Shown here in pieces: positions 45,001 through 60,000 of a DNA stretch of 64,000 nucleotides. The stretch is taken from positions 114,812,252 through 114,876,251 of the forward strand of contig JASCQW010000001.1 of assembly GCA_030264375.1 (NCBI GenBank), in the 5' to 3' direction. Source of the stretch: Carcharhinus longimanus. Taxonomy: Eukaryota. The position numbers were made by a program. The first letter of the stretch is position 1; every line of letters starts with the position of its first letter.

Positions 45001-48000
45001 TGCAAGGGAGATAGTTTAGTTCCAGATAGATTTGAAAAGCAGCAAAAAAAACGATTACCATGATGATGACATGCAAATTTTTAAAAAATTATCATAAGCA
45101 AACATTTGAAGCCTGGACTAATAAAATCCCATCTGTGTTACTTCATATCGAGTTAGTCCACCGCTCTGATAATGAATTTTGTAATATCCCACCGACAGAC
45201 ATCTCAATCAGACACTAATCCTGCGACTTTACTGCGGAATCACTAAATATCCAGCAGGCAAACTGTCGCACTTTGGCACTTGTGGCCGTGCCTGCGCCTA
45301 TAGTTTAGAAAACAAGAAACAGATTAAATCGTGTGAAATCGCTCGAGTTTGGGATGAGATTGATCACGGGACATCGGTTGCCAAGAACCCGCGTTTTTTT
45401 TTGTAGGAAGTGCTGTAAAATTGCTGTTCTCTGGTACATTTTAAATCCGGCTCAAGGTTAAGCAGGGAAAAAAAAACAGCGACACAATTTCGCAATTCAC
45501 AATGACAGCATAATACATTTGAATTAAGATTGCCCTTTCCCTGTATATTAATGAAAACCACGCTGCTGGTTATCTAATTTTAATAAAATGCACATTTGAA
45601 ATGTGTAAAACAGATCGAACAAAGGACTCTATGTTTTTCTGATCTGATGTTTTGTGAATTCAAATAACTGCATTTGTTATAAACCAGCCGCTGATGAAAT
45701 CGAGATTGCCAAGGCCACAGTAGAAGTTAGTTATTGTCGGTTTCTGTTCGTAGCTCTGAACATTGGTTTGTAGGTTGCATGATTATTTTTGCCCAGATTG
45801 TCCCTTTCCAAATTCTGACACTGCATGTTTCATATTGCTGTAATTATAAGCATAATAGCAACATTTGCCTTCATGTCTAATGGTGTTACACTGGCTCTGA
45901 CGGTTAATCTTGTGCAACTCTCTCTAGATAAACAATTGACTGGCGGTATTATGGATGCCAACTGCCGTAAGCATTGCGTCGAATTATGTGAGTAAAAGCT
46001 TCGTTTAACCACCCCCCACCCCACCCCCCGCACCTTTAAAACATCTTGCAATGTAGGGGCAGTTAATACTTTTGTCAAAACTTGGCCTGTGTATAAATGA
46101 CACGTAGGGAAGCTGATTGATTCCCCTGGCGCATTTTTCTCAATGCACCGTCTACTACCGACAGCCACAGAGGGTATTTTCACTCTGAGCTGTGACCGGC
46201 TAAAATTATATTCTGAAGCAAGTTTCAGTGAAGCTCAGATCCTCAAAGCAACAAGAAATAAGAATGAGCATCCCTACAGTGCTTAAGGAGAGGAAAACAG
46301 GTTAATGCAAATGTAGAATTAGAGATTTTAATACGTGACAAATGTACACTTTTGGAACAAATGCCAATAAGATGCTTTGAAATATGTAACCACTATAGTT
46401 GTGAAATTTTACCGACAGCCAGGTACTGGGCAGTTTCTGTGGGTGAGGCCTGTTGGTGATGTCATGGCTGACATTAATTAAGCAGCAAAGGAGAGAGTTG
46501 GAGCTCAGAGTGCCATAAGGAACGTTTAATTAACTCCAGTATTGGGAAGCGAATACACAGACACGTCTGTGCTTTCTTTCGGTTTTGTAACCTTGAAAAA
46601 TCGGTGCTTATGCGACAAACTGGGAAAGTGCAATTCCTTCAGCACCCCAGAAAAGAGGGACCGGAAAGCAGGCAGATACGCTCATTCCACGTGAAGAAAA
46701 GAAATATGCTCCTTTTGAATCAAACGTATTGTCATCTTCTTAACATGAACCCCATCAGAATAATTCGACAAAAATACTTGCCTCAAAAGACGAAAAACCC
46801 ACGCAGAAAACATGTCAAAAGTAATGGTTATAGTTTAAACGCACACGTCTCTAAATCTGCCGGTATATTTTCTTTTTTTCTCATTAGTGCCACCTATCCA
46901 AAAGGTTGGCTCGAATATGATTAATATAATAACCTTGCTGCTGGTATTAAACATGCGTTTATGTGAGGGCTGCTTGGCAGTCCTGTAGACAACTTGAGTT
47001 AGATTTTAAAACATAGAGCATGAATATCTGAGAAGGGGCGTGGGCGAGAACCAACGGAACAATCTAAACTAGGGAAAGTAGAAAACCAAAGGGGCTAACA
47101 GAAATTTTTGTTGCATTTTATTTACGTGTCTCACTTCGTTTCTATGTTTCCCCTCTCAGCCTCGCAGCCCTCTGCTGTGGAGTATTTATTTACGAAAGAC
47201 ACAGAAATTCGAAAATCTGAATTAAGTTCTGCAACGGAAGCTGGAAACAGTAGAAAAGATAATAAATTCCTGAGGCATCACCTCGACTCGCATGGTAGGC
47301 AAAACAAAATAGTCTCCTATATTAAAATTTCCGAACATAAAGTCTTGAAATATTTACGTGATCGGATGGACGGAATTATGGTGTGCGTAACATCATTCAC
47401 TACACTAAACCTTACAACAGAATTCCACTACACCCTCTAACCAAACTGAAAGAAATCTCTCAAGATACACCGATTAGCCTAAAATTTGTGTTAGAGCGGC
47501 CTCTGCTGTACTAAAAGATCAAGTGTAGCAATCCTGAAGGGGTTCTGCTTGCTATGTGAACCCGGCATTTCTAAATTCCTTACAAGCAAGATAAACAACC
47601 GACCAACCTCAATTTTAAATCAAAGTAATTTGAGAAAAAAATTCATTTTCCTGGACTCATCTGAATAATTTACATTTGACTAAATAGCAAGTCCATTCAT
47701 AAAAGAACAGGTAATAAAATATTGAAGATTGTTTCTCTGTTTGGTTCTATCGTTTGTTTTTTTAAAAATACATTCCTGCATATATTACTTACTTTAAAAG
47801 GTGTAAATTATCTGCATACATGCAATTTCTGATATTTTCAGAAAGTGCGCATCCAAATGAGTACAAACCAATTGTGCTGTTTATCTTCACGAACCTCACA
47901 TTTTGAGACAAAGAGATCGGCTGAAGAAAATTAATTGACTTTGCAAAAGCCCTTTTTCTCACATAAAATCGCTTTCTTCATACGCCGTTAGTAATCCTTG

Positions 48001-57000: not shown

Positions 57001-60000
57001 TTGTTTGCATTTTATAGACTAAGAAAACGCGCTGAGTATACATTCAGGGGTGGAAATAATTTATACATATCATTTCTGTTTCTGCATCAGAGTAGGTGCT
57101 TTATAACTCTGCAAATATACAAATTGAATATATGAAGCAATGCGCAAAAATAAGCTATTGTCATTTAAAAGTGAACCAGGGCATTTAATTTAGTCATTTA
57201 ATCGTGAGGTGCTACGATTTAAACCCGCAATATCGCTGTGCTTGTGCACTTAAAGGTACTTTTAGGATGCACAATGTCTAGTTCGTTGTTTCTGGTTGGA
57301 CTTACCTTTCTCAGGTGTGTGAGCTGAATATTTATGTAATGCCCAAGTGAACCAATTGGGAAATCACTGCTCATTTTTGTCCCCAGAAAAAGATAAAATT
57401 CAGCAAAGCAAAAACGATGACACGAATACAGACGACCCGTCAAAGAAAAAGAGACAAAGGCGCCAAAGAACCCATTTCACCAGTCAACAGCTACAAGAAC
57501 TGGAGGCAACTTTCCAGAGAAATCGCTACCCAGACATGTCGACGAGGGAAGAAATTGCAGTTTGGACCAATTTAACTGAAGCTAGAGTTCGGGTAGGTTA
57601 CCGATAATGCTTTTCAGTTGCATCCCCTTCACTATTAGCAGCAACATTTCTGTGCTAATTTTGCATCGTCAGTAATTTTTGAAGACAAAACCTGAATCAA
57701 ACTACAGCAGCGATTTTATGGGGACTTGATCATTAATGTAATTCGACGCATTAATAACTTCCTTGAATTATTTACCTTAGGCAAGATAGACTCCACAATA
57801 GCTTGTCACAATCGCATATTCCTGCTATCTCTTTGCAGCATCCATTAAATAGGGAGATAAGAAACATTTGAACCTACATTACAATATTGTCCAGTGTAAA
57901 AGTCGGCCATAATGTTGTTCTTTCGAAATTAAAGTGCAATATTTATTTCACTTTGGAATACGGTGCAAACTTGCTAAATAGCGCTTAACAATAGTTTGTC
58001 AATGTAGGACACCAGTTGTGTAAACAATGCTGTGTAACAGGCCATTGTGATATTTGTCTGAGATTACATCCCAATACACAAATGTGGCTGCGTGCTGAGA
58101 AGTCTCGCTGCCTGAATGTGGATTCCGACAACTGTGAAAAAAGAGGTCTTTCCTTAAGATTGACGTGATTCATTAGGCTTCACTTAGTGCCTCGAATGGT
58201 ACATAGATAGATAGTCTGAGAAGCTATTCCAGTCTTTCTTAGCTGATCCCTGATTGACCAATAGAAAGGCAACATAGATTGATGAATGGATGGAACTTTG
58301 TTATTGGTATCCCAATCATTTATGATTCGCAGCTCCGTGGAGACCCATGAAATTCCTGTGTTACACAGGATCTCTATTAACGAAGTCACACTGCTGTTCC
58401 TGTATGTGTGACTTCAAAACAGGTATTGTATTGCGCAATCCAATTGTTTATCTGGCTATACCGTGAACAATAAAAGTAGGCTATGTGCATGTTTGTAAAA
58501 AACGTATTGAGTCAACTTCCAATACATTCCCAACGGTGCACTTCTTTTCTTTCTCGGAAAAATACACTCCTGAAGAACAATGTGTTTCCGTTTGGCGTGT
58601 GTTTCCGAACGCAAAAATTCATCCTTCAACACATAGCGAGTGGAATTTTACTCATTTGCTTTCACATTGCACTTTCTGTCCTTACTCTGCTACGTCTGAA
58701 TTATTAATTCACTAAACCTTCCAGATGACAAACAAGTGAGAAGCAGCAGGCCTCCAGGTCACAGCATTCACAATCGATTATATTGCAGCTACCCAGTTAA
58801 GACATACTCGTGGAATTGTTTCAGATAACCATATTTTGGATTCACGTGTGTCACCCTGTTTAGTTCACTTCGCATTCATTTGGGCTTGCCTTTTACACAC
58901 GGAAACAGAGTCAACGATAAAGCACGTTGAAGGGCCAGTTTTCCAATAAAGACAAAATCATGGCAGCGTTTTCGTGATGCTGTGTGCTTTCGAAAAGCTG
59001 ATGAGATGTGTTAATAAATCTCTCCGTGCTTCTTAATAGTACACCTGAAACAAATGTTAAGGGTCGCCTGAAGGTGTTATTGAATAACATCATTTTTAAA
59101 GTTGTTGAGTTATTTATTCGGAAATTCAGTAATTAAATATCCCATTTAAATTAATGATATGGTTTAAGGTTTTTTTGCATAACTTATGTTTCTCAGTTAA
59201 GGATTCAATGGGTTAGTCTTGTTGTATATTTGTAATAAAGGACCCATTACCTATTTCTATATCCGTTACACCAAATACTTGTGACTTTCCTCGGTGATTG
59301 AAAAACCACAGATCTATCTGACTGATTTATTGGGTCCCAAAAGGACAAGCTGATGTTTGCTGGAGCTGAATTCGAACTGGACCCATTTCATGTGTGTTAT
59401 ATCTGTTATATTTGAAATGTACAGATGGTTTAGACGTGTGCTGATGAATCTTCCTTTTTCTCTCTCTCTCATTCTGTTGCATGTTTCTGAAAACAAGACT
59501 GTTGTTTCCCCTTCAGGTCTGGTTTAAAAACCGCAGAGCCAAGTGGAGGAAACGGGAGCGCAACCAACAAGCGGAGCTGTGCAAAAGCGGCTTTGGACCT
59601 CAGTTCAATGGTCTGATGCAACCCTACGACGACATGTACCCGGGCTATTCCTACAACAACTGGGCGGCCAAAGGCTTGACATCGGCTTCGCTCTCCACCA
59701 AAAGCTTCCCTTTCTTCAACTCCATGAACGTTAATCCTCTGTCCTCTCAAGCGATGTTCTCCTCCCCCAATTCCATCTCCTCCATGAGCATGTCATCCAG
59801 CATGGTCCCCTCTGCAGTAACCGGGGTGCCCGGCTCCGGCCTCAACGGTCTCAATAACTTGAACAACCTGAGCAACCCGTCTTTAAACTCCGCCGTCCCA
59901 TCCGCAACCTGCCCCTATGCTCCGCCAACCCCACCTTACGTCTACAGAGACACTTGCAACTCAAGCCTGGCTAGCCTTAGACTCAAAGCCAAGCAGCATT

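What the first reader, a model, noticed from the sequence alone, without database searches (positions are those of the whole stretch)
45951..57392. The canonical Pitx2a splice creates a stop codon at the exon junction
Seen: the a/b exon ends ...GAA TTA T|gtgagt (phase 1) and the shared homeobox exon begins ag|AA AAA GAT. Joining them directly (the Pitx2a isoform) gives T+AA = TAA and a 12-aa peptide, MDANCRKHCVEL*. Including the b exon gives T+CC = Ser and G+AA = Glu and is fully open; the c exon also gives G+AA. Established: in human and zebrafish the a isoform is productive because this junction encodes Glu. Inference: in this shark, skipping the b exon may be an unproductive or NMD switch, making Pitx2b the obligatory distal product. 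Alternatively it may allow re-initiation at the intra-homeodomain Met (57536, MSTREE) to give a truncated, PITX2D-like protein.
Basis: partly seen in the sequence, partly recalled or inferred. Interest (0 to 1): 0.8.

Follow-up and report, generated by a model that had tools for sequence, protein, structure and literature searches.

The report
Shark Pitx2a splice junction makes stop codon
In this shark's Pitx2 gene, skipping the small "b" exon puts a stop codon exactly at the splice junction, so the short Pitx2a protein of bony vertebrates cannot be made by the usual splice; this is a real but modest lineage-specific difference.

Summary
The window holds a shark Pitx2 gene on the + strand. Its first coding exon (ATG 45951) ends in T45987 before GTGAGT. 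The b exon (47160-47294) begins CC and ends G, the c exon ends G56628, and the homeobox exon begins AA at 57387. Exon 2 joined to the homeobox exon reads TAA after 12 codons. The b and c routes stay open.

The T is very unlikely to be an assembly error. All 4 database proteins that carry this b exon, from three other shark species, have Ser at the junction. With G the codon would be GCC, Ala. In contrast, 5 of 5 b-type proteins from bony vertebrates have Gly there, and 4 of 4 a-type proteins have Glu or Asp, so their exon 2 ends in G.

Best reading: b-exon inclusion is obligatory for protein from the distal promoter, and skipped transcripts are non-coding. Whether skipping happens at all, or acts as an NMD switch, is untested.

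- Two in-frame escape routes exist: a donor at 45967 and an acceptor at 57393.
- An out-of-frame ATG at 57417 precedes the in-frame Met at 57536, which weakens the re-initiation idea.

Interest is modest.

The parts
45951..45987 (+). Coding part of Pitx2 exon 2, the first coding exon shared by the a and b isoforms: ATG plus 11 codons plus T45987 (phase 1). The start context is A at -3 and G at +4. The exon probably begins after the AG at 45926-45927.
   Evidence: sequence; translation MDANCRKHCVEL; tblastn of shark Pitx2 proteins P0002, P0004 and P0005 maps to 45915/45930-45986.
45988..45993 (+). Donor GTGAGT of exon 2. The exon side reads TAT, with T rather than the usual G at -1.
   Evidence: rough score 3.2, 97.7th percentile of the 3242 GT dinucleotides on the + strand of the window. 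The frequency table behind the score is recalled.
45967..45972 (+). Alternative donor-like GTAAGC inside exon 2. It is in phase 1 after MDANC, and C+AA = CAA Gln would keep an a-type frame open.
   Evidence: the only other open, phase-1 GT among the 6 GTs listed between 45954 and 46059; score -0.8, 84th percentile. Its use is not shown.
47160..47294 (+). b exon, 135 nt, phase 1 in and phase 1 out. T|CC = Ser at its 5' junction and G|AA = Glu at its 3' junction.
   Evidence: 86-93% identical to the b-exon part of 4 shark proteins; maps at 47159-47293.
47197..47198 (+). AG 39 nt into the b exon (the exon would start at 47199). This is the same offset as the Pitx2b2 acceptor of mouse and human. 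With T45987 it gives TAC Tyr, in frame and open.
   Evidence: PMC2330153 section 6. Its use in sharks is not shown.
56445..56628 (+). Coding part of the c exon, which has its own promoter. It is 61 codons plus G56628, followed by the donor GTAAGG.
   Evidence: 90% identity to the c-type part of P0004; an island of GC 0.66 at 55801-56200 lies just upstream.
57387..57592 (+). Shared homeobox exon, 206 nt. It begins AA (completing the junction codon) and encodes the first 45 homeodomain positions.
   Evidence: Pfam Homeodomain PF00046, E 1.5e-15, profile positions 1-45 of 57; best named hits are pituitary homeobox 2.
57391..57392 (+). Second AG 6 nt into the homeobox exon (the exon would start at 57393). 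T|AT = Tyr, in frame and open. For the b and c routes it would give G|AT = Asp.
   Evidence: Its use is not shown.
57417..57575 (+). First ATG downstream of the junction stop. It is out of frame (+1), has A at -3, and opens 52 codons ending in a stop at 57573-57575. It overlaps the in-frame ATG.
   Evidence: (ORF 57351-57575).
57536..57538 (+). In-frame Met codon inside the homeodomain (the DMSTREE motif).
   Evidence: The residue is invariant in the 11 proteins.
59517..60080 (+). Last coding exon: the rest of the homeodomain ([10 protein letters not shown]..., Lys at position 50), the OAR motif and the stop codon.
   Evidence: 98% identical over 189 aligned residues to S. canicula and S. torazame Pitx2. 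OAR PF03826, E 3.1e-09.

Best explanation
The window carries an intact shark Pitx2 gene whose exon 2 ends in T instead of the G inferred for bony vertebrates.

Shown by the sequence:
- Joining exon 2 directly to the homeobox exon (the Pitx2a splice) reads TAA after 12 codons.
- Including the 135-nt b exon reads Ser, then Glu, and stays open.
- The c route is unaffected.

Inferred from three other shark species that share Ser at this junction and Glu at the next one: the T is real and old, not an error or a recent mutation. In these sharks the only full-length protein from the distal (a/b) promoter through the canonical sites is therefore Pitx2b.

My inference on function: the b exon behaves as a constitutive coding exon in sharks, and the Gly-to-Ser junction codon could drift to T because no productive a isoform needed to be preserved. 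If some transcripts do skip the b exon, they carry only a 12-codon ORF. They would be unproductive by-products, either decayed or translated like an mRNA with a short upstream ORF. I do not think they form a dedicated switch.
For: - Sequence and junction codons.
- Gene identity: homeodomain and OAR motif by Pfam, searched exon by exon. The best named hits are pituitary homeobox 2. The last exon is 98% identical to catshark Pitx2.
- The T is not an error. 4 of 4 proteins found with the b exon (4 with E<=1 among 7 candidates; S. canicula, S. torazame, two C. punctatum records) read ...CVEL-S-SQ.... G would give Ala. A Ser kept through a switch from TCN to AGY would need several changes in one codon.
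- 2 of 2 spliced b-type shark models (P0002, P0005) have Glu at the b/homeobox junction. That is G|AA or G|AG, so a T in front gives TAA or TAG.
- Bony vertebrates differ. Gly is found in 5 of 5 b-type proteins (turtle, bat, frog, newt, bichir). Glu or Asp is found in 4 of 4 a-type proteins (bat, lizard, frog, whitefish). All of these are G-initial codons.
- No a-type shark protein appears among the 120 listed of 1080 hits to the homeobox exon. For bats, a-type (P0027) and b-type (P0034) proteins form separate clusters in that list.
- The b exon has good splice sites: 17 of 20 pyrimidines before CAG, and a donor at the 96.8th percentile of window GTs.
Against: - No transcript evidence of any kind was available, so neither inclusion nor skipping rates are known.
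- The DNA of the other sharks could not be read. Their T is inferred from Ser, and A|GY is not formally excluded. That would give Lys and an open a frame.
- Only three other species were available, in two shark orders (order names recalled). No ray, skate or chimaera was found, so the age and spread of the state are uncertain.
- The absence of an annotated a-type shark protein is weak evidence. A gene-model pipeline would not report a 12-codon ORF. Cluster members could not be listed.
- Two in-frame alternative sites (45967 and 57393) could still give a-like proteins.
Confidence: 0.6

Rival explanations
1. Regulated unproductive splicing. Sharks do skip the b exon in some tissues. The junction TAA then sends those transcripts to nonsense-mediated decay, or leaves them untranslated. 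Exon choice would thereby tune how much Pitx2 protein the distal promoter yields.
For: - The junction stop lies 204 nt upstream of the last exon junction (57592|59517), beyond the usual 50-55 nt rule (the rule is recalled).
- The stop-making state appears to be conserved in 3 other sharks.
- Exon 3 skipping is the normal source of PITX2A in mammals, so the splicing choice is old (PMC2330153 sections 3 and 6).
Against: - There is no evidence that skipping occurs in sharks.
- Conservation of the T is equally explained by its being the first base of a Ser codon in a coding exon.
- A stop only 12 codons from the AUG belongs to the class reported to evade NMD substantially (PMC3273812, start of the abstract as shown in the listing).
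Confidence: 0.12
2. An a-like protein is still made, through a different donor or acceptor. One route is the GTAAGC at 45967 (C|AA Gln, only 5 N-terminal residues kept). The other is the AG 6 nt into the homeobox exon (start 57393, T|AT Tyr, two residues fewer).
For: - Both routes are in frame and open.
- The +6 AG shares the same pyrimidine tract as the canonical one.
- From recall, closely spaced tandem acceptors are often both used.
Against: - The 45967 donor is weak: score -0.8 and 84th percentile, against 3.2 and 97.7th percentile for the canonical donor (the frequency table is recalled).
- The 57393 acceptor follows AAAAAG, with 12 of 20 pyrimidines in the scored stretch, and lies behind a strong CAG.
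- The other sharks read EKEK rather than EKDK at this place. There the bases after the same AG would be the last two of a Glu codon (AA or AG), so T would again give a stop. The acceptor route therefore does not look conserved.
- No a-like shark protein is in the listed hits.
Confidence: 0.1
3. Re-initiation. On a b-skipped mRNA the 12-codon ORF acts as a short upstream ORF. Ribosomes resume scanning and start at the in-frame Met 57536. This would give a protein that lacks the first homeodomain helix and acts like the inhibitory human PITX2D.
For: - The ORF is very short, and the in-frame ATG lies 147 nt after the stop.
- Re-initiation in mammals is reported to be most efficient when the stop is close to the first AUG and about 78 nt upstream of the restart site (PMC6614817, start of the abstract as shown in the listing).
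- PITX2D, with a truncated homeodomain, does not bind DNA and inhibits the other isoforms (PMC2330153 section 3).
Against: - The first ATG after the stop, 28 nt downstream at 57417 with A at -3, is out of frame. Its 52-codon ORF runs over 57536.
- The context of 57536 is weaker (G at -3, T at +4).
- Both ATGs are ordinary features of the exon, and the Met is invariant in all 11 aligned proteins, so nothing here is shark-specific.
- PITX2D itself arises from a cryptic acceptor on a c-promoter transcript, not from re-initiation.
Confidence: 0.04
4. Assembly or sequencing error: the true base at 45987 is G and the a isoform is normal.
For: It is a single base and raw reads cannot be checked here. 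Every bony vertebrate sampled implies G.
Against: G would make the b-type junction codon GCC, Ala. Yet 4 of 4 shark proteins from three other species have Ser, as T gives here. There are no N runs or repeats at the site. The nearest N runs are at 29631 and 61644.
Confidence: 0.03

Closest known systems
PITX2A/PITX2B alternative splicing in mammals (exon 3 skipped or included)
   Same: The exon plan is the same: a short first coding exon in phase 1, an optional exon of about 135-138 nt, a separate c exon with its own promoter, then the shared homeobox and last exons (PMC2330153 section 3). The b exon is recognisably homologous (alignment).
   Different: In the bony vertebrates sampled, both joins are open: Gly in b-type, Glu or Asp in a-type. 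Here the skipped join reads TAA. The shark exon 2 is also three codons shorter.
Pitx2b2 (alternative acceptor 39 bp into exon 3; mouse and human)
   Same: The window has an AG at exactly the same 39-nt offset. It is in frame and open with T45987, giving TAC Tyr (PMC2330153 section 6).
   Different: Its use in sharks is unknown. The AG is largely dictated by the conserved Lys-Asp codons, so its presence alone says little.
Alternative splicing coupled to nonsense-mediated decay (unproductive splicing)
   Same: An exon-skipping event would create a premature stop more than 50-55 nt upstream of the last exon junction (204 nt here).
   Different: Neither the event nor the decay has been shown. The stop is made by the junction itself, not by a poison exon or a frameshift. 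It is AUG-proximal, a class reported to evade NMD (PMC3273812, start of the abstract as shown in the listing).
Human PITX2D (inhibitory isoform with a truncated homeodomain)
   Same: A start at Met 57536 would likewise give a protein without the N-terminal part of the homeodomain.
   Different: PITX2D arises from a cryptic acceptor within exon 5 on a c-promoter transcript, and has been described only in human. The route proposed here is re-initiation, and an out-of-frame ATG hinders it.

Membership tests
Pitx2 (paired-like, bicoid-class homeobox gene) | Homeodomain split over two exons | tested here: met
   PF00046, E 1.5e-15, profile positions 1-45 of 57 in exon 57389-57592. The remainder ([10 protein letters not shown]...) is at the start of the exon from 59517.
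Pitx2 (paired-like, bicoid-class homeobox gene) | Lys at homeodomain position 50 (the feature itself is recalled) | tested here: met
   WFKNRR is read directly. The K after WF is position 50.
Pitx2 (paired-like, bicoid-class homeobox gene) | C-terminal OAR motif | tested here: met
   PF03826, E 3.1e-09, residues 145-162 of the last-exon translation.
Pitx2 (paired-like, bicoid-class homeobox gene) | Orthology to Pitx2 rather than Pitx1 or Pitx3 | tested here: met
   the top named hits are pituitary homeobox 2, and Pitx1 entries score lower; 98% identity over 189 aligned residues to S. canicula Pitx2. The window also holds the Pitx2-specific a/b, b and c N-terminal exons. No tree was built.
Pitx2a isoform | Exon 2 joined directly to the homeobox exon gives an open frame | tested here: not met
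   T45987 + AA(57387-57388) = TAA.
Pitx2b isoform | Exon 2, b exon and homeobox exon are open in one frame | tested here: met
   TCC Ser, 44 open codons, GAA Glu. The same arrangement appears in named shark models P0002 and P0005.
Pitx2c isoform | Own first exon with an ATG, joined in phase 1 to the homeobox exon | tested here: met
   56445-56628, ends in G. One search matches the c-type part of P0004.
Splicing switch coupled to NMD | A premature stop more than 50-55 nt upstream of the last exon junction | tested here: met
   204 nt from the stop to the junction 57592|59517.
Splicing switch coupled to NMD | The stop-creating splice form exists and is stabilised when NMD is blocked | not testable with these tools
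PITX2D-like truncated isoform | Cryptic acceptor within the homeobox exon on a c-promoter transcript (PMC2330153 section 3) | not tested
   The in-exon AGs are listed, but none was compared with the human site. Human sequence was not fetched.

The most novel reading that the evidence does not exclude
At least the shark orders sampled here lost the Pitx2a protein long ago through a junction stop codon, yet kept b-exon skipping as a conserved post-transcriptional valve. On this reading the skipped mRNA is either degraded or translated as a short-uORF message. It would set the level of Pitx2 from the distal promoter in eye, tooth and pituitary, or yield a homeodomain-truncated inhibitor by re-initiation. 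Sharks would then be a natural knockout of Pitx2a and a case of isoform loss turned into dosage control.
Probability: 0.1. Interest if true: 0.55.

Novelty: new variant of a known kind. Interest (0 to 1): 0.3.

Why it matters
Pitx2 isoforms are a textbook case of N-terminal variety in a developmental transcription factor. The a form is described in mammals, frogs, chick and zebrafish (PMC3267762, introduction passage).

If sharks cannot make it by the usual splice, three things follow:
- The a/b choice is not a fixed gnathostome feature.
- Sharks are a natural test of whether Pitx2a has any role that b and c cannot fill.
- Shark expression studies, probes, knock-downs and gene models that assume an a isoform need care.

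The finding does not touch a long-standing open problem. It is a one-base, lineage-specific difference, and its functional weight is probably small, because the isoforms act much alike in assays (passage; abstract of PMC2330153).

I found no paper on shark Pitx2 isoforms in four searches:
- the 2 papers holding all four terms have unrelated titles and abstracts (I did not open them).
- 2 papers, unrelated by title and abstract.
- 30 papers, 25 listed, none about isoforms by title or abstract.
- the 15 best of 3,046 were listed, and only one of those holds a Pitx2a/b term beside a chondrichthyan term. There the term refers to a dentition experiment and says nothing about sharks.

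Tried and rejected
- A b-exon peptide search in the clustered protein set found only 4 shark proteins.
- Adding exon-2 residues from those proteins as a profile found the same 4 among 623 candidates.
- An exhaustive HMMER search of 1.84 billion representatives with the b exon found only P0003. No ray, skate or chimaera b-type sequence was reached. 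The word index and the 50% clustering make this weak evidence of absence.
The 2 members of P0002's cluster and the 7 members of P0005's cluster remain unknown.
- Other donors near exon 2 were rejected: 45978 and 45992 are out of phase, and 46003 and 46053 lie behind an in-frame stop.
- Other acceptors near the homeobox exon:
  - In frame but stopped: 57282 and 57315.
  - In frame and open, but with a poor pyrimidine tract, or deep in the exon and removing part of it: 57324, 57348 and 57432.
- A weak tblastn match on the minus strand at 20493-20618 (E 0.1-0.75) was taken as chance.
- Pfam gave nothing above its cut-off for the b exon or the c exon. The sub-threshold XRCC4_C and ZirS_C rows were ignored.
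- Literature searches for shark Pitx2 isoforms led nowhere.

Full report
What is there. The window is not human. Its coding exons match shark Pitx2 proteins best. The b exon is 93% identical to that of Scyliorhinus canicula, and the last exon is 98% identical.

The gene lies on the + strand:
- Exon 2: coding from ATG 45951 to T45987, donor GTGAGT. It probably starts after the AG at 45926-45927.
- b exon: 47160-47294.
- c exon: ATG 56445 to G56628, behind a GC-rich island.
- Homeobox exon: 57387-57592.
- Last exon: 59517-60080.

Pfam, run exon by exon, finds the homeodomain in the homeobox exon and the OAR motif in the last exon. I searched the model exon by exon only: the b exon and 31/36, the homeobox exon, and Pfam. 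The joined step, searching or folding a spliced model, was left out.

The observation.
- Exon 2 reads MDANCRKHCVEL and then a lone T.
- The homeobox exon begins AA, so the direct join is TAA.
- The b exon begins CC and ends G and is open over its 44 whole codons, giving TCC Ser and GAA Glu.
- The c exon ends in G.
- The N runs of the window lie far from these sites.

Is the T real? Raw reads cannot be seen here, but other sharks can be compared.
- The b-exon peptide finds 4 proteins with E<=1 among 7 candidates. They are S. canicula isoform X1, an S. torazame model and two Chiloscyllium punctatum records.
- All 4 read ...CVEL-S-SQ... across this junction.
- With G the codon would be GCC, Ala.
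- A Ser encoded A|GY in those species would need several differences from the window within one codon while still keeping Ser. T|CN is therefore by far the simpler reading, though I could not read their DNA.
- The two properly spliced shark b-type models have Glu at the next junction. That is G|AA or G|AG, so a T in front gives TAA or TAG in them too.

Comparison with bony vertebrates. From the 120 listed hits of the homeobox-exon search (1080 hits with E<=1e-10 among 1113 candidates) I fetched 18 named proteins. Unnamed hits were not fetched.
- Five are b-type (turtle, bat, frog, newt, bichir). All five have Gly at the exon 2/b junction.
- Four are a-type (bat, lizard, frog, whitefish). They have Glu, Glu, Asp and Glu.
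- Seven are c-type, one has another short N-terminus, and one is a lamprey protein with an unrelated N-terminus.
- The alignment of 11 of these proteins is. P0003 and P0004, both imperfect models, were left out of it and were read.

Every one of these junction codons begins with G. Exon 2 therefore ends in G in the bony vertebrates sampled and not in the sharks. The shark exon 2 is also three codons shorter.

Among the listed hits, the four cartilaginous-fish Pitx2 clusters are:
- b-type: P0002 and P0005.
- c-type: P0006.
- a b/c hybrid ab initio model: P0004.
None is a-type, while bat a-type and b-type proteins form separate clusters (P0027, P0034). This suggests that no a-type shark protein is annotated in this database. 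A 12-codon ORF would never be annotated anyway, so this says nothing about transcripts.

How it most likely works. It is shown that the canonical a-type join is closed and that the b and c routes are open. It is inferred that the state is old and shared by at least these sharks, so that protein from the distal promoter requires the b exon.

My preferred reading is the ordinary one. The b exon is effectively constitutive for coding purposes, and the junction codon drifted from Gly to Ser because no a isoform had to be kept. Supporting points:
- The b-exon splice sites look sound, with 17 of 20 pyrimidines before CAG.
- The b-exon donor is at the 96.8th percentile of window GTs by a rough score built from recalled frequencies.

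If skipping does occur, the transcript carries a 12-codon ORF ending 204 nt before the last exon junction. That fits the usual NMD rule. However, stops this close to the AUG are reported to evade NMD substantially (PMC3273812, start of the abstract as shown in a search listing), so its fate is open.

The rivals.
- A regulated NMD switch needs evidence that skipping occurs, and there is none.
- Re-initiation at Met 57536 is hindered. The first ATG after the stop (57417, A at -3) is out of frame, and its 52-codon ORF crosses 57536. The short ORF and the distances of 28 and 147 nt still leave it possible, since a spacing of about 78 nt is reported as optimal (PMC6614817, start of the abstract as shown in the listing).
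The other sharks read EKEK instead of EKDK there. The same acceptor would leave T in front of AA or AG, so that route does not look conserved.
- An AG 39 nt into the b exon matches the offset of the mouse and human Pitx2b2 acceptor (PMC2330153 section 6) and would be open.

Compared with what is known. The exon plan is that of mammalian PITX2 (PMC2330153, abstract and sections 3 and 6). A passage of PMC3267762 states the reported isoforms:
- a to d in human.
- a to c in mouse and frog.
- a and c in chick and zebrafish.

The named shark and bichir b-type models show that the b exon predates the split of cartilaginous and bony fishes. What is new is that the a join is closed in sharks.

I found no paper that says so:
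- the 2 papers holding all four terms have unrelated titles and abstracts (I did not open them).
- 2 papers, unrelated by title and abstract.
- 30 papers, 25 listed, none on isoforms by title or abstract. I read passages of one of them, which has no mention of isoforms.
- the 15 best of 3,046 were listed, and only one of those holds a Pitx2a/b term beside a chondrichthyan term. In it the term refers to a dentition experiment and says nothing about sharks.

What stayed unchecked:
- Raw reads.
- DNA of other sharks, rays and chimaeras.
- Any transcript data.
- Human and zebrafish sequences themselves.
- Supplementary files.

Verdict. This is a real, probably ancient, one-base difference that removes the canonical Pitx2a reading frame in this shark and most likely in other sharks. 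It is a new variant of a well-known isoform system and of modest interest. The switch and re-initiation ideas remain speculative.

Noticed in passing
window 47197-47199: There is an AG exactly 39 nt into the b exon. This is the offset of the alternative acceptor that makes Pitx2b2 in mouse and human (PMC2330153 section 6). With T45987 it would read TAC Tyr and stay open.
   Followed up: partly
window 57391-57393: A second AG lies 6 nt inside the homeobox exon (cag AAAAAG|AT). If used, it would drop two codons from every isoform and open an a-type frame (TAT).
   Followed up: partly
window 45819-45950: The frame upstream of the conserved ATG is open back to 45819 and holds in-frame ATGs. The NCBI models of S. 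canicula and C. punctatum start upstream of the conserved Met, probably as longest-ORF artefacts.
   Followed up: no
window 40834-40953: The first 40 residues of the S. torazame ab initio model P0004 map here at 87.5% identity, with an in-frame stop in the window. This is probably a conserved non-coding first exon or promoter region of the a/b transcript.
   Followed up: no
window 47295-47320: The intron just after the b-exon donor translates like the read-through tail of the C. punctatum record P0003 (GRQNK...). Either shark sequence diverges slowly or this is a conserved intronic element next to the b exon.
   Followed up: no
window 55601-56400: A GC-rich island lies directly upstream of the c-exon ATG, with GC up to 0.66 and short CCCCCGCG repeats at 55821-55844. 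It is presumably the c promoter. CpG observed/expected is high across the whole locus (median 0.78).
   Followed up: no
window 54006-54028: A (TG)11.5 microsatellite sits in the intron between the b and c exons.
   Followed up: no
window 6023, 10641, 16791, 23568, 29631, 61644: There are six N runs of exactly 100 bases. They were left as they are. None lies within the finding.
   Followed up: no
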